A DNA stretch of 64,000 nucleotides from Bacteroidales bacterium (GCA_012839605.1 DUNA01000006.1:11-64010), one strand, 5' to 3'. Positions 249 through 13,989 are shown, numbered from the stretch's first letter. Translations and numbers: made by a program. The notes: a model not told the origin generated them from the sequence alone.

Positions 249-2318
249 TTATCCCAACGATAAACCCCAATCGTTCTCAAGATAGAACATATTGTTGGCG
301 GATATCAGGATATAAGAAGTCAAAGTCCGTCCGTAAGTTTGGGTGTGTACGTCAGAAAAAGTCATGTTGGCATGTACTGCCAAACGCCACCATGGGAATA
401 CTTGTTGGCTTGTAGATGCATTCAAGGTGTACGAAGTATTTTTAGATACATTCACAGGTCTGGAAATAATGCTGTCCCCTGTGGCAGAGAGTTCTGAAAC
501 AAAATCGTACGTGTTTACGGCATGGGAAAACCTGGCCGTTACAGTATAACTTCGTGCCAACTGAGTTATGAATTGAACAGTATGAGTGATATAAGGTTTC
601 AGGTTTGGATTCCCCGTGGAATATTCATTGGCATAATCCCAGTGAATGTAAGGATCAAGCAAGTGTGGTGACGGCCTGTTAACCTTGCTGGCATAAGAAA
701 CGTTAACGAAATACCCTTTTTTCTGGTTGATGGCATACCTGGCATTGGCTGCCCACAAAATATCTGTTCCGGAATAATCAATTGTACTTCCGGTATATTT
801 GTTCAGTTGTTCAAAGTGTGCTCTTTCTGCACGGATACCTGCCGTAAAGGTAAATCTATCCCCGGCAGAACCCCGGTAGTTCAGGTATCCTGCCAAAATA
901 TCCTCTTGATAATGGATATTTTCACTTGCCGAGAGATCAAAATCCCACTCCGCTCCCAATTCAGTAAAGTGATTGTCTCGGTTTATATAGTACGTTTTAA
1001 GAAACTTGGCGCCTGTTTCAATGGAGTGCTTTTCAGACAGATTGAGGGTAAGATCTCCATAGGTATTCAACGCCTTCCTGTCAGAGTTAGCCTCCCTGCG
1101 CGTATGGTTCAATACATTATCATTAAGCGAGAACAATTCAACTTCATCTGTATTAGTCACCTTTAAGGATGACACTTCCGCTACCAGTAAAAAAGCCGAT
1201 CCTGTTTTTTTATTCAAAATTGCTTTGTAATTCACATAACCTGTTTTGTTGCCGGATGAAAAGCCTAATATCATATTGTTATAATAGCTCTCATCAACTA
1301 TTTTTTGCTCATTATAACCCGGAAACATATTATTTGTACTGAAAACACCAGCTATGGAATGTCTGTCATTAATCCTATAGTGTAAGGATTGTTCCGTGGT
1401 TAAGCTAAATCTCCAGGGACTGACATGGGTGATAAGCTGTTCCGTTTTTATATCCGGATTATCGCTTACAGTTTTTACTACCGAATTACTGATTGAATAT
1501 CCTGTACTTCCATAAACATAGGAAGAGAAACTCAATCCTTTATAGCGGTAACTTAACGTAGCGTTGATCTTTGGTGTAAATCGCTGCTTATCTGCGTCCA
1601 CAGAAGATTGTGCATAAAAACGACCGCCCCCTTCCGGTAATTTCTTCAGCGTTAACCTGATAATAGCAGAGAGGGAACTGCCTGAAAAAGCCACACCGGA
1701 AACCGGAATGACTTCTATACTGGTTATGTTCCCGGCCGGGATAGCTTCCAGGTACGCCTTCAAATCATCGCCCGAGAAGGTCAATTTCCGGTCATCCACA
1801 TATACTATTGCAGAAAGCCCGTTCACCTTTAAATCGGAAACTCCCGGCAGGTAATTCAAAACCTCTATGCTTGTCCTGTCTTTTGCCATCGGGCTGTTGA
1901 CCATGGAAACAATATAACCATCGGGACGGTACCTGATGGGTGTATCCCTTATAGTAATCTCCGTTAATTGCTGTACGTCTTCTTCCAAAATGACAGTAGG
2001 TGTTGTAAGATTTCCGCTTACCTGAATTTGTTCATTCCATTCCTTGTAACCGGTAAAACGCACATTCAACACGTAATGTCCGGCTTCGCTTTTCAACACA
2101 AAGGATCCCCTTTCGTTGGTAACTCCCCAGGCAACTACATTTGCCGAGTCTGTATCAAAAAAACGCAACACTACAGTTGCCCCGGACACAGGAATACCCA
2201 GGGAATCCGTGACTGTTCCCGAGATAATGTAAGACGACACATGTTCCTGGGACCATAAGGAGAAAAAAACAGGTAAGCAGAAAAGCACTAATATTCCTTT
2301 TTTCATACAAAACTTCAA
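249..2318 (-). CDS. Outer-membrane beta-barrel protein with N-terminal carboxypeptidase-regulatory-like domain (TonB-dependent-receptor-like, OMP_b-brl_3 type); 3' end probably frameshifted
   Basis: 689-aa ORF with signal peptide MKKGILVLFCLPVFFSLWSQ. 'ISGTVTDSLGIPVSGATVVLRF' is a CarbopepD_reg signature and 'SIEVLNYLPGV...VYVDDRKL...ITSIEVIPVSG' is plug-like. A long Y/S/N/T-rich strand region follows. Paralog of 2351..5023. Confidence 0.75.
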   Translation of the reverse strand: MKFCMKKGILVLFCLPVFFSLWSQEHVSSYIISGTVTDSLGIPVSGATVVLRFFDTDSANVVAWGVTNERGSFVLKSEAGHYVLNVRFTGYKEWNEQIQVSGNLTTPTVILEEDVQQLTEITIRDTPIRYRPDGYIVSMVNSPMAKDRTSIEVLNYLPGVSDLKVNGLSAIVYVDDRKLTFSGDDLKAYLEAIPAGNITSIEVIPVSGVAFSGSSLSAIIRLTLKKLPEGGGRFYAQSSVDADKQRFTPKINATLSYRYKGLSFSSYVYGSTGYSISNSVVKTVSDNPDIKTEQLITHVSPWRFSLTTEQSLHYRINDRHSIAGVFSTNNMFPGYNEQKIVDESYYNNMILGFSSGNKTGYVNYKAILNKKTGSAFLLVAEVSSLKVTNTDEVELFSLNDNVLNHTRREANSDRKALNTYGDLTLNLSEKHSIETGAKFLKTYYINRDNHFTELGAEWDFDLSASENIHYQEDILAGYLNYRGSAGDRFTFTAGIRAERAHFEQLNKYTGSTIDYSGTDILWAANARYAINQKKGYFVNVSYASKVNRPSPHLLDPYIHWDYANEYSTGNPNLKPYITHTVQFITQLARSYTVTARFSHAVNTYDFVSELSATGDSIISRPVNVSKNTSYTLNASTSQQVFPWWRLAVHANMTFSDVHTQTYGRTLTSYILISANNMFYLENDWGLSLG

Positions 2319-2350
2319 AGTAGCATTATTGTTATATTATTCTTTTTCAG

Positions 2351-5023
2351 CTATCTGATGCTGAACCGGACTTTAAGCAAAACAGAAAAGGGACGGAGCG
2401 TATAAGAGTAAATATAGGCGGTGACATCGGAATAGCTGGCCGTATTGAAATTTTTTGTGTTTAACAAATTGCGTGCTTCAAGTGTGTAATCGAACCGCTT
2501 GGTTTTATACCTTGTCTGAATATCCAGAAAGAACATGTTCCGGTCACCCGAGGTTATGGAGCTGTTATATGAGTGTTCGGCCGACAGGTTACAGGACCAC
2601 TTTTTGGTTATTATAAATTTTGCCGTTGCTTTTTGTGTAATCATCTGTATGGGATCCAGTTGCTGCGAACTGTTTTCAATCCGGCTATGGCTGTTATACC
2701 AGGTCCCACTATACTCTGCAACAACAGACTCGCCAATCCGTGACAAAATTTCCAAACCTGCGTTGTATGTCCTGTATGTAGTGTTCATAAGAGTTCCCTG
2801 CCGGAGGATATCCCTTAAAGAATAATTGTATCCGCCTTTCAGCGTTACAGTTGTAGCAATGGCATCAAAACGCTTTCCAAAACTGGCATTCGTCCGGACT
2901 CCCCGGGAAGTATTGTCAAAAGCGTAAGTAGTAAGCTGTGAGAGCGACCCTGAATATTCGGTTCCATATAACACATTGGAATGATTGACCCAGTACAAAG
3001 CATCCAGTGCCCCAAAAAGAGAAAGAATAGCATTGCCGTAGTTAAGGGTTACGGAACAGGAACTATAACGCGATTCACTTATGATCCCGGAACGGTTTTG
3101 GATGGTACGGTAATTGGTCATAATGTACCCTGTGTACATTTCATACAGTCCTCCGGTAATATGGGAAGTCATGGCATTAGCACTTATTTTCAGATTGTTG
3201 GAAAGTGTGGCGTTAACGTTAAGCCTGGGATCCAGGTACAGCCGGCTTATTTGCTGCAATACGGCGTTTTCCATGAAGTCCTTTAGAGTTATATCCCTGA
3301 AATTCAAAGAACAATGTAATCCCGCATCCCACCGGAATTTTCCCGAAGACCGAAATGTCACACCGGGTGAAAGGTGCAGATCCAGCTTATTCCACGAAAG
3401 ATGGTTTTGCAGGGAATCCGGAGCAGTGATGCTTTTGGTATTATCTTCCAGCGGGCTTAACATGGCAGTCATTCGTTCCTGCTGCCAGTTGGCATTGCCC
3501 CAAAGAGAAAACGTCCAGTCACGGACTTTTTTGTACAAACTGGCTGAATTGTTGGTAAAGAACCGTCGGCTGTCAAGTTCCTGAAAAGAGCCTCGGGCCG
3601 TTTGAACATCTGTTCCAAAAATGCCGGGATAAAGCAACGGTGTTACTTTCAAAGAAGAAGGACTATTGGAAAAATCGGTGATGGACGAACAGGAAAACCG
3701 CAAGGAGGAGAAGGGTTTTACCAGGTTAAATGTATTCCTGAGCCTGATGGCTGATGGAACGGAAAAATCTTGCAGGACTGTATCGGCAGACTGCAAAATC
3801 TGTCCGTGATCTATGTTCCGGCTTCCTTCCAATACAAGGTTATTTTTCAGGTACATTTTTTCTGTATTGGCCGTCAATTCAATTCCAAGATCCACCTGGC
3901 GGGTTTTCCTGGAGGCGCTGCTCTGTTCCCGGATGACCAGAGGCGAAGAATCCTTAATATAATAGGTGGTAACAGAGGATGCGTCGGAAAGTTGCCGGTC
4001 ATGCAGGTAGGCTCCATTGATGTTCAGCTGGTAATCATGTTTCAAAACATTCAGCGTGTTGACCGATACGGCATGTACATTATTATTCAGGTAGCGTTGC
4101 CGGTCAATGGCAGGAGCTCCCGGGGCCAGTATGCCCAACTGCGATACAGTTGCCTCAAGTCCACCGTAAAACGATTTTAATTCACCAGACACATCTTCAC
4201 CTGTATTGTTTGTTTTATAAGTGTTTAAGGTCTGAAACTTCCGGCCAAAAAAAATGGTTGTTACCTCCCCATTCCACATAATTGGTTTATAACCACCTCC
4301 TAATTGCACTACGGAATTGAACGTGCCTTTAGCACTCTCCTTAAGCTTTAGATTAATTGCCGGATCTGTTGAAAAATCGATATCTTTCAGTGCTTTTACA
4401 GGTTGGTGATTCTCTAATATCTGTACCGTTGCAATATCTTTTGCCTGGATATTTCTGGTCCCAATGCCATACCTGCCTTTTAGCAAATCAAGACCTTCTA
4501 CATAAAACTTGTTGATAGACTTGCCTAAATACCTGATCTCCCCACTTTCCCGTACTTCAATACCGGGCATTTTTTTTAACACATCACCTACAGAACGGTC
4601 AAGCGAATCAATAAAATTGGCAACATAGTAATTTACGGTATCACTACGACGCACTATGGGTTCTGCCTTTACAGTAACCTCACGAATGGTAAGCACCTGC
4701 TCTTCCACTTGTAAATCCACTGTTTGTGTCTTATTTTCTATGATTCTCATTTGCTCCTTTATGTTGAACCCGGTCACTTTAAGCATCATGCTATCAACTT
4801 TTGCATTACAGGAGAGTTTGTAACGGCCTTCTTCACCGGTTATCGTATAGGCATAAAAAGATTTGCCGTCTTTCGTTAGCAGCAGCACATTAACGTCCGG
4901 AACGGCTTTCCTGGCTTTACTGTCAGTAACTTTGCCACTAATGACTACCTGGCAACATAACTCCAAAGGTAACAGGAAAAAAAATAAGAAGATATAGTAC
5001 TTATACAACGGTGAAGATTTCAT
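2351..5023 (-). CDS. Outer-membrane beta-barrel protein with N-terminal carboxypeptidase-regulatory-like domain (TonB-dependent-receptor-like)
   Basis: 890-aa ORF with a signal peptide. 'ISGKVTDSKARKAVPDVNVLLL' is a CarbopepD_reg signature and 'VGDVLKKMPGIEVRESGEIRYLGKSINKFYVEG' is plug-like. The barrel-type terminal strand reads 'YTLRPFSVLLKVRFSIR'. Confidence 0.8.
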   Translation of the reverse strand: MKSSPLYKYYIFLFFFLLPLELCCQVVISGKVTDSKARKAVPDVNVLLLTKDGKSFYAYTITGEEGRYKLSCNAKVDSMMLKVTGFNIKEQMRIIENKTQTVDLQVEEQVLTIREVTVKAEPIVRRSDTVNYYVANFIDSLDRSVGDVLKKMPGIEVRESGEIRYLGKSINKFYVEGLDLLKGRYGIGTRNIQAKDIATVQILENHQPVKALKDIDFSTDPAINLKLKESAKGTFNSVVQLGGGYKPIMWNGEVTTIFFGRKFQTLNTYKTNNTGEDVSGELKSFYGGLEATVSQLGILAPGAPAIDRQRYLNNNVHAVSVNTLNVLKHDYQLNINGAYLHDRQLSDASSVTTYYIKDSSPLVIREQSSASRKTRQVDLGIELTANTEKMYLKNNLVLEGSRNIDHGQILQSADTVLQDFSVPSAIRLRNTFNLVKPFSSLRFSCSSITDFSNSPSSLKVTPLLYPGIFGTDVQTARGSFQELDSRRFFTNNSASLYKKVRDWTFSLWGNANWQQERMTAMLSPLEDNTKSITAPDSLQNHLSWNKLDLHLSPGVTFRSSGKFRWDAGLHCSLNFRDITLKDFMENAVLQQISRLYLDPRLNVNATLSNNLKISANAMTSHITGGLYEMYTGYIMTNYRTIQNRSGIISESRYSSCSVTLNYGNAILSLFGALDALYWVNHSNVLYGTEYSGSLSQLTTYAFDNTSRGVRTNASFGKRFDAIATTVTLKGGYNYSLRDILRQGTLMNTTYRTYNAGLEILSRIGESVVAEYSGTWYNSHSRIENSSQQLDPIQMITQKATAKFIITKKWSCNLSAEHSYNSSITSGDRNMFFLDIQTRYKTKRFDYTLEARNLLNTKNFNTASYSDVTAYIYSYTLRPFSVLLKVRFSIR

Positions 5024-5049
5024 AATCTAACTTGTTTAGTATATGATAA

Positions 5050-5955
5050 TTATTCCAGCTCCAAAGGAGGTATATAAGGTTTACGAAATGAAAGCCGCAT
5101 TTCTTCTGTAACAGGCACCATTTTTCCGGTTCTTCCATCGCGTGCAACAGGGGCTATTATTTTTCCGTGCTGTTCGAGCAAACCTATAGGATCATCCCAT
5201 ATTTTTCGCTGTAATTTCTGCAATTGCGCCCGGCTGATGATTTTTTCCCTGATGGCAGATGTTCCTGATAGTCCCTGTTTTTTTGTGTCATACATGAAAA
5301 TTAAGTTTTTTGTCTGACTGATTCCGGTGGCCCTCCACAGGAAAAGACCTTTGTTATCTTTTGCCTTGAGAATAAGCCCCGGCAATCCCTGAAATTTCCA
5401 AGGTCCTGCCTGAACAGGTATCTCAAGAGTGAACCAAACTTCGTAGGAACGGCCCCTGAAACAAGCGGTTGCTTTATAGCATTGGTGGGAAAGGATTGTA
5501 TCTGATTCACCCAGATTCAATTGCCAGTCAATATCAGGAACAGGTTCGTTGTAAATATATTCTGTGTTCACAATGGTTGTCCAGACGGTAAGCTGTCCTT
5601 TCCCGGGGTAATGGAAATAGTAATTTTCATAATGATCTTTTTCATTTGCTGCCATCCAGTTGCGCGGGTTTAAGCCGCCTTGTGTTTTACTAATTCTGGC
5701 CCTATACATGGTAGAATCTGTTTTGTCGGCTAAAAGACTGAAATAATGGATAAAATACGAACCAATATCCAATCGCTGCCGATCCGTATAACGCATATCG
5801 GAAAGAGTATCAATGGCAAATGTAAAGTCATACGTGACGGACAGGAAACTTGAATCTAGGATCGTCTTCTGTGTGACGTCACGGCAATCCGGATCCTGAG
5901 CCAGAGCATAGATTGCTGACAAACAGCAGTAAAATATGGTAAATGTCTTTTTCAT
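5050..5955 (-). CDS. GLPGLI family protein (TIGR01200-type), function unknown
   Basis: 301 aa with a signal peptide. Carries the name-giving motif 'PWKFQGLPGLILKA' and the C-terminal 'PYIPPLELE' shared with neighbouring paralogs. Its start overlaps the upstream stop by 1 nt (TAATG). Confidence 0.85.
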   Translation of the reverse strand: MKKTFTIFYCCLSAIYALAQDPDCRDVTQKTILDSSFLSVTYDFTFAIDTLSDMRYTDRQRLDIGSYFIHYFSLLADKTDSTMYRARISKTQGGLNPRNWMAANEKDHYENYYFHYPGKGQLTVWTTIVNTEYIYNEPVPDIDWQLNLGESDTILSHQCYKATACFRGRSYEVWFTLEIPVQAGPWKFQGLPGLILKAKDNKGLFLWRATGISQTKNLIFMYDTKKQGLSGTSAIREKIISRAQLQKLQRKIWDDPIGLLEQHGKIIAPVARDGRTGKMVPVTEEMRLSFRKPYIPPLELE

Positions 5956-6580
5956 TATTCCAGTTCCAAAGGAGGAATATAGGGAATCTTTACGTCTCCG
6001 GGTTTGGCTTCAATATATTCTCCGTTTTTATAAACGTAAAACTGTCTGTTCGCTGTTAGATAGAGAGAAACGGGGTCTTCCCAGAATTTTCGTTCGATTT
6101 TCTGAAAATCTTTTCTGGAAAGCGGATAGCTGCGCTTTTTCTCTATATCAAATATCAGTATTCTTCTTTCTTTTGGTCTGTATATTCCCATTACACGCCA
6201 TTCAAAAAGCCCTGAGCTTTCAGTTATCTGTAAAATAGTTCCCGGTAAGCCATTGAATTTCCATGGTCCGTAAGATATAGGAATGTCGGAAGTAAACCAG
6301 GCGGTATAATCTCTGCCTCTGAAACGAACAGTGGCTTTATTACAAGGATAACCTAAGATGGTTGTTGTATCATCTTGGATAATTCTCCATTCCATAACAG
6401 GCATTTCTTCTTCATAGACAAAATGGCTTATATAACCAACAGATACGGTTAGGATCCCCTTTTTCGGATAATTGTAATGACAATCGGCGTAGCTGATGGT
6501 TTCATTACTGCCCAGCCCCATTTCCTTAAATAGATTGTAAGCTTTGGTCGCCATAGCACGTACAGAATCGGCTTTCTTTA
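5955..6580 (-). pseudogene. C-terminal fragment of a GLPGLI family gene interrupted by the IS element
   Basis: Encodes '...KKADSVRAMATKAY...PWKFNGLPGTILQITE...PYIPPLELE' but lacks the signal peptide and N-terminal third. The tracked ORF start (GTG at 6602) lies inside the IS terminal repeat. Confidence 0.8.
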
Positions 6581-6668
6581 ATACTCCCCATCTTTCAACC
6601 ACCAGGTTAACTTTTTAAGTTTAGTTTTTACTTTTTTCGTTTTTTAATTTCTTCCTAATTTTTAATCT

Positions 6669-7526
6669 CTAAGCAGCATATTCATACCTGTAATTTGGGG
6701 TATAACGGTTCAGACTTTGATGGGTTCGTTGGTTATTGTAGTAGTAAAGATACTCTTTTAAGCCTTTCTGCAACTCTTTCCCATCTTCTGCCGGATTTAA
6801 ATAAACATATTCCCATTTAAGCGTTCTCCAAAATCTTTCTATATAAATGTTATCCAAAGCCCTTCCTCTTCCGTCCATACTGATAATGATATCCTCGTTT
6901 TTTAAATATTCCACCCATCCTGAACAGGTAAATTGGGATCCCTGGTCAGAATTAATAATTTCCGGTTTGCCATACAAAGCAATAGCCTCTTTTAATACCT
7001 CAAGCGAGTTTTGTGCGTCCAGTGTGTTGAATAATCCCCAACCAACTATATACCGGCTATATACATCGATAATGGCCGTCAGGTAAAGAAAACCGCGTTT
7101 CATAGGGATATATGTTAAATCTATACACCATACCTGATTACTGCGTGTTATTTCCAATCCTCTGAGCATATAGGGATGAATGTATTTGGCGATTCCCAAT
7201 TTACTCAGATTCTTTTGTGGATATATAGCCATGATTCCCATCTTTCGCAAAAGCCTGCGTACTCTTTTAGGACCGACCAATATGCCAAGCGTTTTAATAA
7301 AATCAACCATGCTCAACACACCCTTGTAAGGGTGGTCCAGAAATTCCTTATCCATATAACGCATCAACTCCAGATCTTCAGGATTTTCTGCTACCGGTTG
7401 ATAATATATGTTACTCCTGTTTACTCCCAAAAGCTCACATTGTCTGCGAACACTCACCTTATCCAGAGGATCTATGACTTTTTCGAGGGCTTCAGTATCC
7501 CCAATTGCTCTGAGACCCTTTTGCAA
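6669..7526 (-). CDS. IS3-family transposase OrfB (rve/DDE integrase core)
   Basis: Candidate DDE-context motifs are 'WCIDLTYIP', 'INSDQGSQFT' and 'ERFWRTLKWE'. The frame is -1 relative to orfA and stays open upstream of the tracked start through the A6 run. The two ORFs overlap by 55 nt. Confidence 0.9.
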   Translation of the reverse strand: MQKGLRAIGDTEALEKVIDPLDKVSVRRQCELLGVNRSNIYYQPVAENPEDLELMRYMDKEFLDHPYKGVLSMVDFIKTLGILVGPKRVRRLLRKMGIMAIYPQKNLSKLGIAKYIHPYMLRGLEITRSNQVWCIDLTYIPMKRGFLYLTAIIDVYSRYIVGWGLFNTLDAQNSLEVLKEAIALYGKPEIINSDQGSQFTCSGWVEYLKNEDIIISMDGRGRALDNIYIERFWRTLKWEYVYLNPAEDGKELQKGLKEYLYYYNNQRTHQSLNRYTPNYRYEYAA

Positions 7527-7780
7527 AAATCCACTTCTACCTCCAATCGGCCGATTTTTTCATATAAGGCCTTTTCACGTTTTATTACCTCTTCATCCGG
7601 AGCTTTGGTGGAAAAGATTTCTGAACCACGGGAAATGAATTCACGCTTCCAATTCGAAATCATTTGCGGATGCACTTCAAACCGTTTGGCCAGTTCGCTC
7701 AGTGTCTCCTGTTCTTTGATTGCCTCTATAGCCACTTGGGCTTTGAAGGCTGCACTGTGTTTCTTTCTTGTCTTTGACAT
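7472..7780 (-). CDS. IS3-family transposase OrfA (HTH, IS3/IS911-type)
   Basis: 102 aa. 'HSAAFKAQVAIEAIKEQETLSELAKRFEVHPQMISNWKREF' is a typical HTH_Tnp_1 domain, followed by a coiled-coil tail. Confidence 0.9.
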   Translation of the reverse strand: MSKTRKKHSAAFKAQVAIEAIKEQETLSELAKRFEVHPQMISNWKREFISRGSEIFSTKAPDEEVIKREKALYEKIGRLEVEVDFCKRVSEQLGILKPSKKS

Positions 7781-7840
7781 AATGGGTAAATTTAAGTGTT
7801 TTTGTTAAACTTACCCGGTGGTCTGAATTTACGGGAGTAT

Positions 7841-8080
7841 TATATTCTCCCCGTAGAGACTGTAATACCTGCTATATTTTTGTCCCACATCCAGCCGGTA
7901 TTTTTCGGAAAAAGGAGGATTTCCCAAAGTGTCTTTATGGAAAGTGTATAGATAATCCATTGTTAAAAGGCAGTCATCAATGGCTGTCATTCTGATAAAT
8001 TCTCTATTAACTCCACCAAGATCCTGTGCATAAACACTATTCGAAACGATTAAGAACAGAACTATCACTTTTGTTTTCAT
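7841..8080 (-). pseudogene. N-terminal fragment of the IS-interrupted GLPGLI family gene
   Basis: The signal peptide MKTKVIVLFLIVSNSVYAQ is followed by 'YLYTFHKDTL...YRLDVGQKYSRYYSLYGENI', which aligns with the N-termini of the paralogs at 8119..8985 and 5050..5955. The tracked ORF runs on into the IS and stops at 7829. Confidence 0.8.
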
Positions 8081-8118
8081 GTTTCAATACATTAGAATCG
8101 ACTTATGCAGACAAGTAT

Positions 8119-8985
8119 TTATTCCAATTCCCTGGCCGGAATATAAGGTCTCTTCCATTCTCCCGGACCAGCAGGTCTTTTAGTACCGTCGGGGTTCTTC
8201 AACGTAACATTGACTCTCTGACCGAGTGTCTGATACAGGAGAATTGGATCCTGCCAGGACATTTTTTGCAGTTTCAGATAGTCGGTTCTTGAACATTGTT
8301 GGGTACGTAATCCATCAAGCTTATACAGGATTCTGTTTGTTGGACGAAGGATAGCTGTGGCAGTCCATGTGAAGAGCTCTTCAGAATCTTGTGCCTTAAG
8401 GATCAGTCCAGGGAGACCGTTAAATTTCCAGGGTCCTGAAGAAATTGGAATTTCCTGCGTAAACCACACGTGGTATTCCCTTCCCCTGAAAACTGTAACA
8501 GCCTTAATACACTCGTAGCCAAGAATTTCTGTTTTCTCCTGCAGCAGATGCCACTCCATCCTGGGAACAGGTTCCTGATATACGTATTCCCTGTTGATAA
8601 CCCCGGATGAAACCATCAAGGTTCCTTTAGAAGGATAGTTGAAATAATAATCTTCGTAATTGATCTGAACGTCTTTTGCCAAATCTTTAAAAGGATTCAT
8701 TTGTCTTTCCGCGACTGCCCATGTAGAATCCACTTTTGCTCCGTTCAAACTGTAATATTTTGAGATTTGAGATCCAATTTCAAGGCAGTGTAAGTCGTGA
8801 AAACGGGTTTGGGTTACTGTGTCCTTATAAAAAGTATGTCTATAATTTACGGCATACCGGCAAGTATCAACAGGTACTTTGCTGGTTTTTTGCCTGAAAT
8901 AAGGATCATATACCTGTCCAAAACATTGAATTATGAACAAACTGAAAGACACGCATAAAAAGATTTTTCTCATTTTAATTAACAT
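8119..8985 (-). CDS. GLPGLI family protein
   Basis: 288 aa with a signal peptide, 'PWKFNGLPGLILKAQD' and a C-terminal 'PYIPARELE'. The start could instead be Met5 (8973). Confidence 0.85.
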   Translation of the reverse strand: MLIKMRKIFLCVSFSLFIIQCFGQVYDPYFRQKTSKVPVDTCRYAVNYRHTFYKDTVTQTRFHDLHCLEIGSQISKYYSLNGAKVDSTWAVAERQMNPFKDLAKDVQINYEDYYFNYPSKGTLMVSSGVINREYVYQEPVPRMEWHLLQEKTEILGYECIKAVTVFRGREYHVWFTQEIPISSGPWKFNGLPGLILKAQDSEELFTWTATAILRPTNRILYKLDGLRTQQCSRTDYLKLQKMSWQDPILLYQTLGQRVNVTLKNPDGTKRPAGPGEWKRPYIPARELE

Positions 8986-9012
8986 GAAAGTTTTAATAAA
9001 TAATATTCTAAG

Positions 9013-9047
9013 AAAAAACAGGGATAAAATTCAGTCCCTGTTTTTTT
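9013..9047 (-). terminator. Hairpin with flanking A/T runs immediately 3' of the RiPP precursor gene (possible intrinsic or bidirectional terminator)
   Basis: The plus strand reads 'AAAAAACAGGGA-taaaattcag-TCCCTGTTTTTTT'. On the minus strand the stem is followed by T6. It lies 8 nt after the precursor stop codon. Confidence 0.5.
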
Positions 9048-9054
9048 ATAAATC

Positions 9055-9279
9055 TTAAGGGTTTATTATCACTTCTTCAAGAAAGATAGTTAAATCCTCT
9101 AGTGGTACATCAGACCAAAGACCGTCTGCTTGATTTGCATAGCCATTATCTTGAGTTGAAGATCCACCATCATGTGCGTAGGCACATCCACAACCACAAG
9201 CGCCACCTCCAGTGATATGACTCATCTCTTTCTCATTAAGGCTATTTTTTTCAAGGTTATTTAATTTCAATGATTTCAT
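9055..9279 (-). CDS. GG-leader RiPP precursor peptide (GG-Bacteroidales rSAM-target type, TIGR04149-like)
   Basis: 74 aa. The leader 'MKSLKLNNLEKNSLNEKEMSHITGG' is followed by the Cys/Gly core 'GACGCGCAYAHDGG...'. The gene lies directly downstream of SPASM-domain genes. Confidence 0.75.
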   Translation of the reverse strand: MKSLKLNNLEKNSLNEKEMSHITGGGACGCGCAYAHDGGSSTQDNGYANQADGLWSDVPLEDLTIFLEEVIINP

Positions 9280-9491
9280 GACAACAAGAAATTATAAAAG
9301 CCTACTCGTTAGCTTTTCGGCATCCGCTCCGGATGATTTATACAGACCGGTTTCTGCATCACGATTACCTGCTCTCGGTTCTTGTGAAAAGAAGATATAA
9401 ATTTTATGCCTGTTTTCATTTTTACTTTGATATGTTTACAACCTTTGATCTGATGGAATAGGGTTTATCCGGCTGGCAAGACCGCGTAAAA

Positions 9492-10688
9492 CTATTTTAT
9501 TGTACATAAATTGTTTTTACCAAGAATCAATTCATATTGGCAGGGAGAAGGACAAAGCCACTGGTAAACACATCCGGAACAGGGCTCCTGGTCCCGGATT
9601 ACCCGCCAGGCAAAGTTTCTGTGTAATTCATTTTTAATTAAGTCATAAGGAGAATCCTGCATACATCCGATGGGTGGCTTGTTAACATTGGAATAAATCA
9701 ATCCGTCGGGTAACAAGACTAGTTTTCCAAAAAAATTAATATTAACTGCTTGGTGTGCGAATACAATCCTCTTGGATAGTCTTGTATTGGTAATATCTTC
9801 TTCATTCAAAAAAACAAACTGTTTGAAGAAAGCGTAATTATTATCGTAAATTGGGATATACCTGTACAGTTGTATTTTATATTGTGCTACCAGATGTTCC
9901 CAGTAATTGTACTCAGTCTGGCTCCTGATAAGGAAATTAAATTCAAAGGAATTTCGGGATTCGTCGGATGCGAGAAAATCATTCAACACTTTTAGTGAGG
10001 CTGGCTCGTATTCGCATATGAGGATAGTTGTTACATCGGGTTGTGTAAGAACGGAGGTTACATTATCTGACAGTTCCCGAACATGGCAATAATAAACAAC
10101 CGCTGGAGCCGTTGCTTTAAGTTTTTCCGTAAGAGATATTAAAAAATTTGTTGACTCAATATGTGAAAAAACAATATTGACCTTTTTAATATACCGGGAA
10201 TGTATATGACCAAGGAAGTTCAATATCTCTAAATCCTCAAGACAACTTTCGGAGTGGAACGGATAAAAGGTTTGTCGGTAATACAAAGGCCCTGAAAAAC
10301 GACCGCCGGCATATATGGTAAGGGTTGTCAAATACTTCAGGATGTCCTCGCCAAAGCTTTTTGAAGGACTATTTTCCAGTTTTTTTATATCATTCTGAAT
10401 AGAAAGAACGGGCGGAAGTGAATAAGCTTTTGCCGGATGTCTTGTAATGAATCCGTATTTTTTCCTGATTACCAGGTCAACAAATTCTGCTTCATCTGCT
10501 GTGAAATTCTCCGGTTCAATTTCAACAGAATACAGATTATCAACAAATAGTAAAGCAGAGCACAGGGATTTAAGTGAGGGCGTACAATTGAAGCCATCTT
10601 TTTCAAATGTTTTTGCATTATACAGTAACCCGGCACTAGCTTTCAGCCATAAAAAAGTGTCTGGGAGTAATGTTAAAACCTGTTTCAT
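9492..10688 (-). CDS. Pseudo-rSAM/SPASM protein of the GG-Bacteroidales peptide system (TIGR04150-like)
   Basis: 398 aa with no CX3CX2C motif. The C-terminal SPASM cysteine motif 'CSGCVYQWLCPSPC' is Cx2Cx5Cx3C. The start is 3 nt after the upstream stop, which suggests coupling. Confidence 0.65.
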   Translation of the reverse strand: MKQVLTLLPDTFLWLKASAGLLYNAKTFEKDGFNCTPSLKSLCSALLFVDNLYSVEIEPENFTADEAEFVDLVIRKKYGFITRHPAKAYSLPPVLSIQNDIKKLENSPSKSFGEDILKYLTTLTIYAGGRFSGPLYYRQTFYPFHSESCLEDLEILNFLGHIHSRYIKKVNIVFSHIESTNFLISLTEKLKATAPAVVYYCHVRELSDNVTSVLTQPDVTTILICEYEPASLKVLNDFLASDESRNSFEFNFLIRSQTEYNYWEHLVAQYKIQLYRYIPIYDNNYAFFKQFVFLNEEDITNTRLSKRIVFAHQAVNINFFGKLVLLPDGLIYSNVNKPPIGCMQDSPYDLIKNELHRNFAWRVIRDQEPCSGCVYQWLCPSPCQYELILGKNNLCTIK

Positions 10689-10691
10689 AAG

Positions 10692-11930
10692 TCATTCCAT
10701 TATAGCCTCTTTCATGATTTTTGCATACAAATAAGGGTGGTCTTTCAAGTAATCCATACAGGACACAGCATAGTATTTAAAAGCGGCATCTCCTGTATAT
10801 CCGGGACATACCGGAGCTTTGTTCTTATCAATACCAGGGATGAAATAAAGACACTGTGTACAACTTTTTTTTCTTTTACATAATTTACATTGAGCCTCCA
10901 TCTTTTCAAGATAGCTATTGTATTTATGAACAACGGAATCAAGATCCAATAATACGCTTTCTTCAGATATACTACCCAAAGCAAAAGAATGGTCTATTTT
11001 TTCACATTGCAAAATTTTACCATTTACTGTAACAAACATTTTTTTACCGAATGGTGTACACGTTCCGGTTGGTGTAACCGTAAAGTTTTCTTCATCTATA
11101 AACAGGCGGTTCAATTTCATATAAAATTGAGAAATATTAAATAAAACTCCCGGTTTATCGGTGTCATACATTCCTTTGAGAGAATCATTGACAGAGTGTA
11201 TGATGGCTTCCTTGAAAGTTGGACCTGTCTGGTAAAAGAATGCGTTTACCTTTTTTACAGATGGTATTAATTCATCGGGGATAGAGTCCATAGCATTAAT
11301 TTGCAGCACTATATTTTCAGCCTCTTCTGTTTTGCCTACATATATTTTAGCGTAAAACAGGTTAATATAAGCCAAAACATAATTTCTGTAATTCCCTGCC
11401 TTTTTACCAGCCTCCAGCCCCTTTTCATAACAGACCTCAGATTCAGGATAATTTCTGTTCCTAAGGTTGATGTCCCCCAAATACCCATACAGAAGCACCT
11501 GCAGAGTCTGGTTTTCTATGGCATGGGTCTTTATAACCTGTTCAGCTTCCCTCAAATGGACATATGGCAATGTGTCTATGGGATTGAGCCCATAACGGAC
11601 AATCCCCAGGTAGATCAGGGAGCGGGCAAGTTTTTCGGGATCTTTGCCGTTCCTGTACCATTCCGCTGCTAATGATATTATGGAATCGTCCGTGAAATCC
11701 ACATAAGATTTATCCCTGGCTATGGTCAGCAACAAATTGTAATAAGACTGCACTTCCCCGGGACACTCAGATACATCCATTTGTTCCAAACTATCCAGGA
11801 CAACCCGGGGCACGTGGCTGAGCAGGCTGTCCAGATTAGCCAGACGAGCTTGCATTACATGCTGCCTGATTGCCGTATTGCAGGAAACCAGCAGCAACAA
11901 GCCAAGCAGTATCCACAGGAATTTTTTCAT
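10692..11930 (-). CDS. Chimeric ORF: TPR-like lipoprotein N-terminus fused to the SPASM C-terminal domain of a radical-SAM peptide maturase (radical-SAM core absent)
   Basis: 412 aa. Residues 1 to ~270 carry the lipobox 'LLLLVSC' and a TPR-regulator-like helical region ('YYNLLLTIARDKSYVDFTDDSIISLAAEWY'). Residues ~285-412 read 'GTCTPFGKKMFVTVNGKILQC...CKLCKRKKSCTQC...VCPGY...HPYLYAKIMKEAIME', which is a SPASM motif set (Cx12Gx4C, Cx2Cx5Cx2C, C). No CX3CX2C is present. Confidence 0.7.
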   Translation of the reverse strand: MKKFLWILLGLLLLVSCNTAIRQHVMQARLANLDSLLSHVPRVVLDSLEQMDVSECPGEVQSYYNLLLTIARDKSYVDFTDDSIISLAAEWYRNGKDPEKLARSLIYLGIVRYGLNPIDTLPYVHLREAEQVIKTHAIENQTLQVLLYGYLGDINLRNRNYPESEVCYEKGLEAGKKAGNYRNYVLAYINLFYAKIYVGKTEEAENIVLQINAMDSIPDELIPSVKKVNAFFYQTGPTFKEAIIHSVNDSLKGMYDTDKPGVLFNISQFYMKLNRLFIDEENFTVTPTGTCTPFGKKMFVTVNGKILQCEKIDHSFALGSISEESVLLDLDSVVHKYNSYLEKMEAQCKLCKRKKSCTQCLYFIPGIDKNKAPVCPGYTGDAAFKYYAVSCMDYLKDHPYLYAKIMKEAIME

Positions 11931-11959
11931 GATTGTCCTGCTAAATTACAAAAATCGCT
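11915..11959. repeat. 45-bp direct repeat, copy A (5' UTR plus the first codons of the TPR-lipoprotein ORF)
   Basis: 'ACAGGAATTTTTTCATGATTGTCCTGCTAAATTACAAAAATCGCT' matches copy B at 43 of 45 positions. Confidence 0.9.
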
Positions 11960-12141
11960 TCAAAGAGAAAAGAGGTAGTATAACAAATGGACGAACCACA
12001 GGTTTGGCTTAATGCAAATGAATCTGACATTTATGAAGCGCCTCAGGCCTACAAACCCAAAGCAGAAATTCTACAGGCCATAGAGCCCCTTTGAAGACAA
12101 ATCCGTATGCTATAAAATTTTCATACCTTCACACAAAAACA

Positions 12142-12393
12142 ATGGACAACGATTTAACTATACTGCTTGAGACAACAGATAGGGTAATAGCAGAAGACAT
12201 TCAGGTTTTATTAGAAGACTCTCAGATTTATTCGTTGCTCGCTTCGGATAATCCGGCATCGTCTGTTTTAAGTATCTATCTCGGGTCTAATCCAATAGAA
12301 AACGTCAGCATTCAAGTAAACAAAAAAGATTATCAGAAAGCTGTTGAAATAATTAGTAACAGTGCATACAAGGATTTTTTAACAACTGTATAG
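12142..12393 (+). CDS. Small DUF2007-like (putative signal-transducing) protein
   Basis: 83 aa counted from the ATG at 12142; the tracked ORF starts at an upstream TTG. It has a two-half alpha/beta pattern ('TILLETTDRVIAEDIQVLLEDSQI' and 'IQVNKKDYQKAVEII'). Confidence 0.45.
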   Translation: MDNDLTILLETTDRVIAEDIQVLLEDSQIYSLLASDNPASSVLSIYLGSNPIENVSIQVNKKDYQKAVEIISNSAYKDFLTTV

Positions 12394-12406
12394 CAGAAAT
12401 GAAGGG

Positions 12407-13681
12407 TTAATCAAAATAATCCAGCAGCCACTTCCAGATAGGAATAACCTCAATAATGCGGCCATCTACTTCCAGAGTCTGTTCCTGATCTTTTGTTACA
12501 ATGATTAATCTTTTACAATCCAACACTTTAGTAATTTTTCTCAAAGCATCAACTTCCCGTTTGTACGTATCCGGGCTGCTGTCGAGCCTGTAACATACCT
12601 GAATGGCCAACGATGCTTCCGGAATATAAAAATCAACTTCGTGATTTTTGTGGTAATAAAAAACGGCATCTTCCCTGCCATATTTTCTGATCAGATTAAC
12701 TGCAACCAGGTTTTCAAGCAAGGCAGTATTGCCATCCAGCAAAAAAAGGTTGAGCAGTCCGTTATCCAGGAAGTAATATTTAGGATTGGTCTCTTTATTA
12801 ACTAGTTTGCCTGCAATATTTTGGATGGAAAGTAAGAGCCACGCATCTTTTGCATATTCCAGGTAGTTGATGATTGTATTTGTGGTTACTTTTGCTCCTG
12901 TTGAAGAAACAATATTCGCAACTCGGTTAAAAGACAAGGGTTGTCCAACGCTTTCTGCAATTTTTTTAAACATCACTCGTAATGCAAAGCTGTTAGAAAT
13001 AGTATTACGAGCTATTATATCGCCCAAAAAAACTTTTTGATATATACCGGATAGATAATTCCGTTTAACGGCAAAGTGAACTCCTTCCGGGAATCCTCCA
13101 AAAAAGAAATAATCCTGGAACTGCTTCATGAGTCTGGATTTTGTCTCTGTTGACATAGGCACTTTTTCGTTATAGCTGACTCCATTGGCAACTAAAAACT
13201 CTTTGAAACTATAGGGATACACTTCTACAGAAACAAACCTGCCTCCCAGTGTTGTTTGAATATCCGTGCTCAGCATTTTGGCATTGCTTCCTGTTATATA
13301 AACCTTATGCCCGGTATCGGCTAATCTGCGTGCAAATGTTTCCCAGCCTGCAACATTCTGAATTTCATCTAAAAATAAAACTGGTTTTTTACCATCAAGC
13401 TCTAAATGAATTTCCAGTAATAAGTTCAGATCGGTAGTTTCCATACCTATGAGACGTTCATCTTCAAAATTGACAAAGACAATCTGGTCCCATCCTGTGC
13501 CACTCCTCAGCAACTCCTGCATATGCTGATAAAGCAGGAATGATTTACCTGCCCTACGGATTCCTGTAAACACATAATTACCATACTCTTCAAATTGGAA
13601 TTCTCTTGGAATAACTCTGTATTTCGCAACCTCTTCGCGTGCATCGGCAAGCACTGTTTTTAATAGATCTTTGCTAATCAT
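12407..13681 (-). CDS. AAA+ ATPase (AAA_14 + DUF4143 architecture, COG1373-like)
   Basis: 424 aa with Walker A 'GIRRAGKSFLL' and Walker B 'VLFLDEIQNV'. The C-terminal 'EVDFYIP...' region is typical of DUF4143. Confidence 0.8.
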   Translation of the reverse strand: MISKDLLKTVLADAREEVAKYRVIPREFQFEEYGNYVFTGIRRAGKSFLLYQHMQELLRSGTGWDQIVFVNFEDERLIGMETTDLNLLLEIHLELDGKKPVLFLDEIQNVAGWETFARRLADTGHKVYITGSNAKMLSTDIQTTLGGRFVSVEVYPYSFKEFLVANGVSYNEKVPMSTETKSRLMKQFQDYFFFGGFPEGVHFAVKRNYLSGIYQKVFLGDIIARNTISNSFALRVMFKKIAESVGQPLSFNRVANIVSSTGAKVTTNTIINYLEYAKDAWLLLSIQNIAGKLVNKETNPKYYFLDNGLLNLFLLDGNTALLENLVAVNLIRKYGREDAVFYYHKNHEVDFYIPEASLAIQVCYRLDSSPDTYKREVDALRKITKVLDCKRLIIVTKDQEQTLEVDGRIIEVIPIWKWLLDYFD

Positions 13682-13837
13682 TGTGAATTTTGTTTTATCT
13701 ACTGAACAAAAATAGGTATTTTTTGTTTAATACACAAAACAGAATAGGCATACTTAATTGTAAGCCTTATAGGTATCTATAACGAACCTAGTTATTATAA
13801 GCGAATTGACTAATCGCTTTTATTATTATGACAGGAG

Positions 13838-13862
13838 AGCCTCACGCGAGTGGGGCTTTTTT
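13838..13862 (+). terminator. Orphan intrinsic terminator-like hairpin on the plus strand
   Basis: The 8-bp stem 'AGCCTCAC'/'GTGGGGCT' includes one G-U pair and closes a GCGA (GNRA) tetraloop, followed by a T-run. No plus-strand CDS lies upstream. Confidence 0.5.
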
Positions 13863-13893
13863 GCAATACACAGTTAGATAGAAACAAAAGCCA

Positions 13894-13938
13894 ACAGGAA
13901 TTTTCTCATGATTGTCCTGCTTAATTACAAAAATCGCT
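13894..13938. repeat. 45-bp direct repeat, copy B (promoter/5' stub of a TPR-lipoprotein-like gene)
   Basis: 'ACAGGAATTTTCTCATGATTGTCCTGCTTAATTACAAAAATCGCT'. On the minus strand it starts an 11-codon stub, 'MRKFLLAFVSI*'. Confidence 0.9.
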
Positions 13939-13989
13939 GAATTTGACTATTTTTGTTAATTCCATTTTAAAACACATATCCTACTTGTT

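What the first reader, a model, noticed from the sequence alone, without database searches (positions are those of the whole stretch)
9055..9279. GG-leader precursor with a C-G-C-G-C core and an unusually long acidic tail
The leader 'MKSLKLNNLEKNSLNEKEMSHITGG' fits my recollection of the GG-Bacteroidales rSAM-target family (TIGR04149). It has the KLKLN..L..L...EM..I.GG pattern and a double-glycine cleavage motif. The 49-residue core begins 'GACGCGCAYAHDGGSSTQDNGYANQADGLW', with three cysteines in strict alternation with Gly/Ala. It ends in 'SDVPLEDLTIFLEEVIINP', an acidic-hydrophobic tail. To my knowledge the mature product of this RiPP class has not been characterised. No C39-peptidase/ABC exporter for GG cleavage is visible in the window.
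Basis: partly seen in the sequence, partly recalled or inferred. Interest (0 to 1): 0.65.

Follow-up and report, generated by a model that had tools for sequence, protein, structure and literature searches.

The report
Stranded RiPP precursor in a deleted cluster
The small gene is a genuine member of a known but chemically unstudied family of modified peptides from Bacteroidales, but in this genome a 20.8-kb deletion has removed the enzyme core and the exporter it needs, so this copy is probably a recent leftover rather than a working product.

Summary
It passes the curated TIGR04149 model (48.9 bits, cutoff 25), and the gene next to it passes TIGR04150 (279 bits, cutoff 250).

The features called special are mostly family traits. 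CxCxC, Y34, GGSS, N45, A48-N49 and S56 are near-invariant across hundreds of relatives. Only the tail from residue 57 varies. The core is shorter than the family median (49 aa against 53-55). The tail is, however, among the most acidic in the family.

The main result is about the locus. The ORF where the radical SAM maturase should be (10692..11930) is an in-frame chimera. Residues 1-276 come from a TPR/LuxR regulator and residues 277-412 come from the SPASM end of the maturase. The two are joined at a 5-bp microhomology. Strains with 99.5% identical DNA carry the full maturase, a C39-peptidase/ABC exporter, a HlyD-like adaptor and two further peptide sub-clusters, about 20.8 kb in all, in that position. 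An independent assembly carries the same junction, so the deletion is real.

Nothing left in the window has a CxxxCxxC motif or an exporter. An IS3 insertion and a second small deletion lie downstream. The family is known; this copy is a stranded one.

The parts
9055..9279 (-). TIGR04149-family RiPP precursor gene (74 aa plus stop)
   Evidence: Translation. TIGR04149 scores 48.9 bits against a cutoff of 25. It is the only hit in the window to the family HMM. The identical peptide is on 224 public contigs.
9205..9279 (-). Leader, residues 1-25, ending in G24-G25 (the predicted C39 cleavage site)
   Evidence: G24 is 99% and G25 95% conserved in 149 representatives. K5, L6, L14 and M19 are 83-91% conserved.
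9112..9204 (-). Conserved post-GG scaffold, residues 26-56 (CGCGC-Y-GGSST-DN-AN-G-S), the presumed site of modification
   Evidence: C28, C30, C32, Y34, G38, G39, S40, S41, N45, A48, N49, G53 and S56 are 82-100% conserved. Most of the 150 listed hits of the profile search match profile positions 1-56 only.
9058..9111 (-). Variable acidic-hydrophobic tail, residues 57-74 (DVPLEDLTIFLEEVIINP)
   Evidence: Column conservation is 33% or less from residue 57 on. The tail is conserved only in close relatives P0122 and P0124 and in the paralogue pre2. Net charge is at the acidic extreme of the family.
9011..9047 (-). Terminator-like hairpin just after the stop codon (A-run, CAGGGA, 10-nt loop, TCCCTG, T-run)
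   Evidence: Read directly from the sequence. The scan missed it because it allows loops of 3-8 nt only.
9492..10688 (-). TIGR04150 pseudo-rSAM protein (398 aa), intact
   Evidence: TIGR04150 scores 279.3 bits against 250. It is 99.7% identical to the allele in intact loci. It has no CxxxCxxC. The AlphaFold model (pLDDT 88.4) matches SuiB, CteB, SkfB and anSME.
10692..11930 (-). Chimeric in-frame ORF (412 aa): 5' part of a TPR/LuxR regulator gene fused to the 3' third of the TIGR04148 maturase gene
   Evidence: No database protein covers both halves. TIGR04148 scores only 152 bits against 300 and only over profile positions 271-410. It has no CxxxCxxC.
11108..11930 (-). Regulator-derived part (residues 1 to about 276: lipoprotein-type signal and TPR region; the transmembrane segment and LuxR HTH are lost)
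   Evidence: 94% identical to residues 1-276 of the 533-aa protein P0001. Window 11959..11103 aligns to L006 2943..3799.
11103..11107 (-). Deletion junction: 5-bp exact microhomology GCCTG (8 of 9 over 11103..11111)
   Evidence: Three-way base-by-base comparison. The identical junction is present in the independent contig L016.
10692..11102 (-). Maturase-derived remnant (SPASM end, equal to residues 296-431 of intact P0013)
   Evidence: Window 11111..7845 aligns to L001 10877..14143 at 99.5%. The junction corresponds to P0013 residue 296, and the CxxxCxxC motif at residue 44 is lost.
8119..8985 (-). GLPGLI-family (TIGR01200) exported protein directly downstream of the precursor
   Evidence: TIGR01200 scores 178 bits. 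A signal peptide is visible. It is 99.7% identical to the gene in intact loci.
6578..7844 (-). IS3-family insertion sequence that splits the next GLPGLI gene (fragments at 7845..8080 and 5955..6577)
   Evidence: IS3 transposase scores 234 bits. The insertion maps to L001 14140-14143. The ends carry imperfect inverted repeats. Boundaries are approximate.
5955..5967 (-). Junction of a second difference from intact relatives: L001 14766..16115 (second precursor plus a 291-aa GLPGLI gene) is absent
   Evidence: blastn of the window against L001. The second precursor is recovered from L001-L004 only.
249..5955 (-). Retained downstream genes: GLPGLI (5050..5955), CarboxypepD_reg-like 890-aa protein (2351..5023) and an outer-membrane beta-barrel protein (249..2318)
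   Evidence: Family hits. They are 98-99% identical to L001.

Best explanation
The ORF is a true precursor of the TIGR04149 family of radical-SAM-modified peptides from Bacteroidales.

In intact strains of the same organism (an uncultured Bacteroidales bacterium seen in anaerobic-digester metagenomes) the locus reads: PCAT exporter, HlyD-like adaptor, DUF3244 protein, TIGR04148 radical SAM/SPASM maturase, TIGR04150 pseudo-rSAM partner, precursor, GLPGLI proteins, beta-barrel outer-membrane proteins.

The inferred pathway is as follows. The leader (residues 1-25) docks the peptide on the maturase and its pseudo-rSAM partner. The radical SAM enzyme cross-links the three invariant cysteines (C28, C30, C32), most probably as thioethers to residues of the invariant GGSS..N..AN stretch. 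The C39 domain of the exporter then cuts after G25, and the exporter with its adaptor secretes the product. The variable tail gives each peptide its individuality.

In this window a single deletion of about 20.8 kb, mediated by microhomology, joined codon 276 of an upstream TPR/LuxR regulator gene to codon 296 of the maturase gene. It removed the regulator's DNA-binding domain, two neighbouring peptide sub-clusters, the exporter, the adaptor, the DUF3244 gene and the entire radical SAM domain of the maturase. The precursor, still 100% identical to the working allele, is therefore stranded. Nothing encoded nearby can modify, cleave or export it.

Shown here: family membership, the chimera, the deletion and its reality, and the loss of the catalytic motif and the exporter. 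Inferred: the chemistry, the leader docking and the loss of function.
For: Membership: TIGR04149 48.9 bits against 25 and TIGR04150 279.3 against 250.

Chimera: the first two-thirds of the 412-aa ORF match 531-533-aa TPR/LuxR regulators at up to 94% identity, the last third matches 415-431-aa radical SAM proteins at up to 94%, and no hit spans both.

Intact loci: L001-L005 and L010-L015 carry PCAT, HlyD, DUF3244 and the full maturase directly upstream of the same TIGR04150 and precursor genes. The intact maturase P0013 scores 515 bits on TIGR04148 against a cutoff of 300.

DNA mapping: window 11959..11103 equals the regulator region of L006 at 95%, and window 11111..7845 equals L001 at 99.5%. 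L006 and L001 overlap over 838 bp at 100%, which gives a deletion of about 20.8 kb. The junction has 5 bp of microhomology and is in frame.

Independent confirmation: the Logan contig L016 (run SRR32869333) differs from the window by one residue, carries the identical junction and also runs into the IS element.

Loss of function: neither the chimera nor the pseudo-rSAM protein has CxxxCxxC. No PCAT, HlyD or radical SAM N-terminus is found anywhere in the window.

The canonical layout is strongly conserved: 67 of 69 assessable TIGR04150 loci from other species have an rSAM-like ORF directly upstream. Of all 81 rSAM-like ORFs in the 80 loci, 72 have CxxxCxxC.

Chemistry lead: the closest scored families for the intact maturase are CcpM, the lachnocin maturase, RumMC and PapB, and the closest solved structure is CteB. 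The three Cys and the GGSS..N..AN positions are near-invariant.
Against: Only 64 kb of the genome is visible, so a second TIGR04148/PCAT locus elsewhere could act on this peptide. Several Bacteroidales genomes do carry two or three such loci (L035/L044; L054/L061; L037/L051/L060).

The pseudo-rSAM gene, the precursor, the GLPGLI genes and the outer-membrane genes show no decay (99-100% identity). That fits a very recent deletion, but it fits continued use equally well.

The reference for the deleted stretch is a composite of two metagenome contigs from different samples. They overlap at 100% over 838 bp, and L007, from the same sample as L001, shows the same left half.

The thioether chemistry is inferred from relatives that all score below their own family cutoffs. 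No experiment on this class was found.
Confidence: 0.85

Rival explanations
1. The deletion is real, but the precursor is still matured and exported in trans by a paralogous TIGR04148/TIGR04150/PCAT locus elsewhere in the same genome. On this reading the gene is still a working product gene.
For: Multiple TIGR04150 loci per genome occur in other Bacteroidales (L035 and L044 in Bacteroides bouchesdurhonensis; L054 and L061; L037, L051 and L060). The precursor and the retained genes are undamaged. In intact relatives one PCAT appears to serve three GG-leader sub-clusters, so sharing of machinery is normal here.
Against: In the intact relatives all three sub-clusters and the only PCAT seen lie inside the stretch that is deleted here. 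Nothing of the kind is present in the 64 kb. The paralogous maturase of sub-cluster B is only about 30% identical over the SPASM region, so cross-recognition is not assured.
Confidence: 0.12
2. The chimeric ORF is an assembly artefact that joins two unrelated regions of a metagenome, and the real genome has an intact locus.
For: The window appears to come from a metagenome-derived assembly. The exact chimeric protein is not on record as a called gene.
Against: The two parents share only 5 exact bases at the junction, far below any assembler k-mer. An independent assembly of a different run, L016, has the same junction, one amino-acid difference elsewhere and the same IS insertion downstream.
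Confidence: 0.03
3. The peptide acts without radical SAM modification, for example as an unmodified double-glycine bacteriocin or signal peptide. On this reading, loss of the maturase does not matter.
For: It has a double-glycine leader. In intact relatives a membrane-anchored TPR/LuxR regulator sits next to the sub-clusters, which would suit a signalling role.
Against: The three Cys and the GGSS..N..AN positions are 90-100% conserved next to a maturase that is present in 67 of 69 loci, which argues that modification is essential. The exporter/peptidase needed for any GG-leader peptide is also deleted.
Confidence: 0.04

Closest known systems
TIGR04149 / TIGR04148 / TIGR04150 cassette of Bacteroidota (the 'GG' rSAM-target peptide, its radical SAM/SPASM maturase and the pseudo-rSAM partner). 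It was defined bioinformatically and has been described in Bacteroides fragilis 3_1_12 and B. uniformis ATCC 8492 (PMC4573289) and in Bacteroidales BGC3-5 (PMC10352776).
   Same: The precursor and the pseudo-rSAM pass the curated models. Intact alleles of the same locus have the full maturase (515 bits) and, like the B. uniformis cluster, a C39/ABC exporter and a HlyD-type protein.
   Different: In the window the maturase is reduced to its last 136 residues fused to a regulator fragment, and the exporter is gone. This lineage also places the precursor after the enzymes and follows it with GLPGLI and beta-barrel genes. That layout holds for 21 of 97 precursors, whereas 34 of 97 sit just upstream of the rSAM gene.
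Ranthipeptides / SCIFF peptides and their maturase CteB (PDB 5WGG/5WHY); PapB
   Same: CteB is the closest solved structure to the intact maturase (E=1e-12) and is among the top fold matches of the pseudo-rSAM model. The substrate is Cys-rich, with Ser/Thr/Asp/Asn available as acceptors.
   Different: The family scores are far below the cutoffs (SCIFF maturase 69.7 against 425; PapB 109.7 against 340). The CxCxC spacing and the GGSS..N..AN motif differ from SCIFF and freyrasin-type precursors (that comparison rests on my own knowledge of those families). No cross-link has been shown.
Sactipeptide and Cys-rich peptide maturases RumMC, CcpM (TIGR04068) and the lachnocin maturase (NF038170)
   Same: These are the next-best scoring families for the intact maturase after TIGR04148 (176, 170 and 112 bits) and for the remnant in the window.
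   Different: All score well below their cutoffs (500, 550 and 720). They are Firmicutes systems without a pseudo-rSAM partner.
SuiB (streptide Lys-Trp cross-linking rSAM/SPASM enzyme, PDB 5V1Q)
   Same: It is the best structural match of the TIGR04150 model (E=9e-11), with an N-terminal peptide-binding-type module, a partial barrel and a Cys-rich C-terminus.
   Different: TIGR04150 lacks the CxxxCxxC motif, shares only 12-13% identity, and reaches a TM-score of only about 0.45.

Membership tests
TIGR04149 rSAM-modified RiPP precursor | Score at or above the curated cutoff of the TIGR04149 model | tested here: met
   48.9 bits against a cutoff of 25, E=4.3e-13, residues 1-36 on profile positions 4-39 of 43.
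TIGR04149 rSAM-modified RiPP precursor | N-terminal leader ending in a double glycine | tested here: met
   ...HITGG at residues 21-25. G24 and G25 are 99% and 95% conserved in 149 relatives.
TIGR04149 rSAM-modified RiPP precursor | Cys-rich segment just after the GG | tested here: met
   CGCGC at residues 28-32. CxCxC is present in 78 of 95 and in 138 of 149 relatives.
TIGR04149/04148/04150 cassette | Adjacent TIGR04150 pseudo-rSAM gene | tested here: met
   9492..10688 scores 279.3 bits against a cutoff of 250.
TIGR04149/04148/04150 cassette | Adjacent complete TIGR04148 radical SAM/SPASM maturase with CxxxCxxC | tested here: not met
   In the window the score is 152.3 bits against a cutoff of 300, covering profile positions 271-410 only, with no CxxxCxxC. 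The feature is met in the intact allele P0013, which scores 515.4 bits and has C44NLKCKYC.
Double-glycine peptide export system | C39-peptidase ABC transporter (PCAT) and membrane-fusion protein in the locus | tested here: not met
   tblastn finds no match in the 64 kb. Both are present in intact relatives: a 736-aa PCAT with Peptidase_C39, ABC_membrane and ABC_tran domains, and a 422-aa HlyD/AprE-like protein.
Sactipeptide / ranthipeptide | Maturase belongs to a characterised thioether-forming rSAM family | tested here: inconclusive
   The intact allele's best non-TIGR04148 hits (CcpM, lachnocin, RumMC, PapB, SCIFF) are all below their cutoffs. The nearest PDB entry is CteB at E=1e-12.
Sactipeptide / ranthipeptide | Cys sulfur to acceptor-carbon thioether bridges in the mature peptide | not testable with these tools
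   This needs mass spectrometry or NMR of the product. No published product was found.

The most novel reading that the evidence does not exclude
In this sub-type of the family the invariant cross-linked scaffold carries a hypervariable tail, often ending in a hydrophobic stretch plus proline. That tail would be read by the exported GLPGLI protein(s) and the CarboxypepD_reg-type beta-barrel encoded just downstream of each precursor, forming a polymorphic peptide-receptor (or toxin-immunity) system. The deletion lineage, which keeps the precursor, the pseudo-rSAM, the GLPGLI genes and the barrels but loses production and export, would then be a natural 'receiver or immune only' cheater rather than mere debris.
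Probability: 0.1. Interest if true: 0.7.

Novelty: new member of a known kind. Interest (0 to 1): 0.3.

Why it matters
This window is not the place to look for the product. Any attempt to detect or express this RiPP should use the intact allele (locus L001 or L010), which has the same precursor with its maturase, partner and exporter.

The comparison also gives a sharper description of a large and still uncharacterised RiPP family, with at least 786 clusters at 50% identity. The part after the GG is more conserved than the leader: C-x-C-x-C-x-Y, GGSS, N, AN, G..S. Only the last 20-30 residues vary. That pattern points to where the radical SAM chemistry probably acts and to what probably carries specificity.

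The natural deletion variant is a small, clean example of how such clusters are lost in the wild: one microhomology deletion plus an IS insertion.

Tried and rejected
1. Is the TPR-plus-SPASM protein a conserved architecture, perhaps like the 'lipoprotein plus SPASM-only protein' described in B. fragilis 3_1_12 (PMC4573289)? Rejected. None of the 155 homologues covers both halves.

2. Is the junction an assembly artefact? Rejected.

3. Is there a second precursor, maturase or exporter elsewhere in the window? None was found.

4. Does the pseudo-rSAM protein have a sequence relative in the PDB? Nothing significant. Fold comparison was needed instead.

5. Has anyone characterised the product? 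Five searches and four papers consulted gave only bioinformatic mentions.

6. The sigma-70 promoter scan near the precursor gave counts no better than shuffles, and the tool does not model Bacteroidota promoters. I make no promoter claim.

7. Two technical slips were corrected. The first blastn ran against L005 rather than L001 because my script overwrote a multi-record file; it was redone. The first leader regex was too strict and returned nothing; it was fixed.

8. The sample of 149 representatives is chosen by profile score, so it is enriched for the motifs it is used to measure. For that reason I also report the sample of 95 precursors, which was selected through the TIGR04150 gene.

Full report
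**1. The observation**

The ORF at 9055..9279 lies on the minus strand. It scores 48.9 bits on NCBIfam TIGR04149 against a cutoff of 25, with E=4.3e-13. It has no Pfam hit.

A family HMM run over all 1403 stop-to-stop segments of the window finds only this ORF, at E=5e-18; the next best segment scores 0.31. The identical peptide is encoded on 224 public contigs. Sources name its relatives 'TIGR04149 family rSAM-modified RiPP' or 'natural product precursor'.

**2. What is and is not special about the peptide**

I collected two samples of relatives.

- The first sample was selected through the neighbouring enzyme rather than the peptide. It comprises 80 loci from species-representative genomes that encode a TIGR04150 protein. 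These loci held 97 precursor-like ORFs, 95 of them unique.
- The second sample came from a profile search of 1.84 billion representative proteins. It gave 786 clusters at E<=0.001 and 153 at E<=1e-10.

CxCxC occurs in 78 of 95 sequences in the first sample and 138 of 149 in the second. CGCGC is simply the commonest version.

Measured against the window peptide, the following positions are 82-100% conserved in the 149 representatives: G24, G25, C28, C30, C32, Y34, G38, G39, S40, S41, N45, A48, N49, G53 and S56. From residue 57 on, no column exceeds 33%. Most of the listed profile hits align to positions 1-56 only. That sample is biased towards the profile, but the enzyme-selected sample shows the same picture.

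The family therefore has a conserved leader, an even more conserved post-GG scaffold, and a hypervariable tail.

The window's core (49 aa) is at the 32nd-33rd percentile, and its tail (25 aa after the AN) is shorter than the median of 29-30. 'Unusually long' is wrong. 'Acidic' is right. Net charge -6 is the most acidic of 53 tails in the first sample, and only 3 of 127 reach it in the second.

The tail motif (VPLE...LEEVIINP) recurs only in close relatives. These are P0122 at 82% identity, P0124 at 62%, and the paralogue pre2, which ends ...VVLEEIVIPG.

**3. The locus**

Immediately upstream on the same strand, 9492..10688 is a TIGR04150 pseudo-rSAM protein (279.3 bits against 250).

The next ORF, 10692..11930 (412 aa), sits where the TIGR04148 maturase should be. 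It matches that model only over profile positions 271-410 and scores 152 bits against a cutoff of 300. It begins with a lipoprotein-type signal and a TPR-like region.

A homology search shows it is a chimera. About the first two-thirds match 531-533-aa TPR plus LuxR (GerE) regulators at up to 94% identity. The last third matches 415-431-aa radical SAM proteins at up to 94%. None of the 155 hits spans both parts.

**4. Intact relatives and the deletion**

Contigs that carry the intact 431-aa maturase P0013 (L001-L005) show this order:

- C39-peptidase ABC exporter (736 aa)
- HlyD/AprE-like adaptor (422 aa)
- DUF3244 protein (118 aa)
- maturase
- TIGR04150
- the identical 74-aa precursor
- two GLPGLI genes
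- a second precursor
- two more GLPGLI genes
- an 890-aa CarboxypepD_reg protein and a beta-barrel

P0013 scores 515 bits on TIGR04148.

Contigs that carry the intact regulator P0001 (L006-L009) show it next to the same peptidase C69 and GFO/IDH genes that flank the locus in the window. After it come two further GG-leader sub-clusters: one with a VKOR-thioredoxin protein, and one with a 484-aa rSAM and a 421-aa TIGR04150-like protein. L006 and L001 overlap over 838 bp at 100% identity.

Window 11959..11103 aligns to the regulator region at 95%, and window 11111..7845 aligns to L001 at 99.5%. It follows that about 20.8 kb is missing from the window.

At the junction the parents read AACCGCCTG and AACAGCCTG. 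The window reads ...AACCGCCTG|TTTATAGATG..., which is 5 bp of exact microhomology, in frame. The fusion joins regulator residue 276 to maturase residue 296. The CxxxCxxC motif at residue 44 of the maturase is lost.

**5. Is the deletion real?**

Seven of the eight contigs shown that encode exactly the same TIGR04150 protein are intact upstream. These are L010-L015, and L017, whose upstream fragment reads as maturase throughout.

The eighth, L016, is a Logan assembly of run SRR32869333. It contains the exact 61-nt junction, differs from the window by one amino acid elsewhere, and ends inside the same IS insertion.

With only 5 bp shared at the junction, an assembler artefact is implausible. The deletion marks a real lineage.

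**6. Consequences**

Neither the chimera nor the pseudo-rSAM protein has a CxxxCxxC motif. tblastn with all 24 proteins of the intact island finds no exporter, adaptor, DUF3244 protein, VKOR protein or radical SAM N-terminus anywhere in the 64 kb.

Across other species the layout with the rSAM gene directly upstream of TIGR04150 holds in 67 of 69 assessable loci. Of all 81 rSAM-like ORFs in the 80 loci, 72 have CxxxCxxC. The window is a clear outlier.

The retained genes are 99-100% identical to the intact alleles. The loss is therefore recent, and the precursor shows no decay.

Two further lesions lie downstream. An IS3 element at about 6578..7844 splits a GLPGLI gene. In addition, 1.35 kb holding the second precursor and a GLPGLI gene is absent.

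**7. How the intact system most likely works (inferred)**

The pseudo-rSAM model is confident (pLDDT 88.4). Its best structural matches are RiPP rSAM/SPASM enzymes: SuiB, CteB, SkfB and anSME. It keeps invariant C370, C373 and C379 and near-invariant C395 at its C-terminus. It looks like a catalytically dead paralogue that may still bind the leader or an auxiliary cluster.

The intact maturase is closest to CteB among solved structures. Among curated families it is closest to CcpM, the lachnocin maturase, RumMC and PapB, all below their cutoffs.

The most economical model has four steps:

- leader-guided binding;
- radical cross-linking of C28, C30 and C32, probably as thioethers to the GGSS..N..AN stretch;
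- cleavage after G25 by the C39 domain;
- export by the PCAT with its adaptor.

None of this chemistry has been shown. PMC10352776 states that no function has been assigned experimentally to pseudo-rSAM proteins, and I found no paper describing a product.

**8. Verdict**

The 'distinctive' features are family hallmarks, apart from the tail's acidity.

The window's copy is a precursor stranded by a recent 20.8-kb deletion. Rescue in trans from an unseen locus cannot be excluded (about 0.12).

The family is known and is annotated automatically, so novelty is low. Interest is modest. It rests on the sharper family signature, on the natural knockout, and on an uncorrected association between Pro-ended tails and downstream GLPGLI genes (11 of 21 against 3 of 76).

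Noticed in passing
window 8119..8985, 5050..6602 and 249..5023; L001 13003..21296; L006 7126..10688: In this lineage every GG-leader peptide is followed by exported GLPGLI (TIGR01200) protein gene(s) and a CarboxypepD_reg-type beta-barrel. Across 80 TIGR04150 loci, 21 of 97 precursors have a GLPGLI gene immediately downstream. A tail ending in Pro is linked to that layout (11 of 21 against 3 of 76; Fisher p about 9e-7, not corrected for phylogeny). I found no paper linking GLPGLI proteins to RiPP clusters.
   Followed up: partly
window 6578..7844: An IS3-family element (orfB at 6669..7526, likely orfA at 7472..7780) with imperfect terminal inverted repeats is inserted in the 285-aa GLPGLI gene. 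The insertion site corresponds to L001 14140-14143. The independent contig L016 ends inside the same insertion.
   Followed up: partly
window 5955..5967 (junction); L001 14766..16115: A 1.35-kb stretch holding a second TIGR04149 precursor (MKSLKLNNLEKSSLNEKEMKHVIGGTVCGCGCCYAGQGGSSTDDNGAANFAGGLHSPGCENEPYVVLEEIVIPG) and a 291-aa GLPGLI gene is absent from the window. The breakpoints lie in about 13 bp shared by paralogous GLPGLI gene ends. The flanking segment 5955..6577 is only 94% identical to L001, which suggests recombination between paralogues.
   Followed up: partly
window 11915..11960 and 13894..13940, enclosing 11960..13893: A direct repeat of about 46 bp (two mismatches) includes the regulator's start codon. 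It flanks a 1.9-kb segment that is absent from L006 and carries an AAA_14/DUF4143 ATPase gene (12407..13681) and a 100-aa ORF (12091..12393). This looks like an insertion with an unusually long target duplication.
   Followed up: no
L006 2972..14573 joined to L001 1..12933: Intact relatives carry an island of three GG-leader sub-clusters that appear to share one PCAT. (A) TPR/LuxR regulator, 118-aa DUF3244-like protein, VKOR-thioredoxin fusion (524 aa) and a 74-aa five-Cys peptide with no family hit. (B) A second TPR/LuxR regulator, a 66-aa CGCIC peptide (TIGR04149 22.5 bits, just under the cutoff), a 484-aa rSAM and a 421-aa TIGR04150-like protein (183 bits, under the cutoff). (C) The cluster studied here.
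   Followed up: partly
P0001 (533 aa); window 11108..11930: The regulator has a lipoprotein-type signal (LLLVSC), a TPR region, an apparent transmembrane segment (AYIIFSVILLAIVIVSIIGLFYW) and a C-terminal GerE/LuxR HTH. This is a membrane-anchored one-component design that could sense an exported peptide. In the chimera the signal and the TPR part would carry the SPASM fragment out of the cytoplasm.
   Followed up: no
window 9492..10688 (model mb9dee35b959a): The TIGR04150 pseudo-rSAM keeps the fold of RiPP rSAM/SPASM enzymes. It retains invariant C370, C373 and C379 and near-invariant C395, but has no CxxxCxxC. It may still hold an auxiliary Fe-S cluster or bind the leader through its N-terminal strand-helix module.
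   Followed up: partly
window 9143..9487 against L001 14776..15123: The roughly 208 nt upstream of precursor 1 and of precursor 2 are duplicated together with the leaders (84% identity over 348 nt). Each precursor therefore carries its own conserved 5' region, and each precursor 1 copy is followed by a hairpin terminator. I did not test for a structured RNA or a Bacteroidota-type promoter.
   Followed up: no
L018 (JBAZIG010000061.1) and L019 (JAHDNZ010000073.1): The two closest species-representative loci (84% and 81% TIGR04150 identity, with near-identical precursors) sit in MAGs labelled Candidatus Paceibacterota and Bacillota. These short contigs are probably Bacteroidales DNA that was mis-binned.
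   Followed up: no
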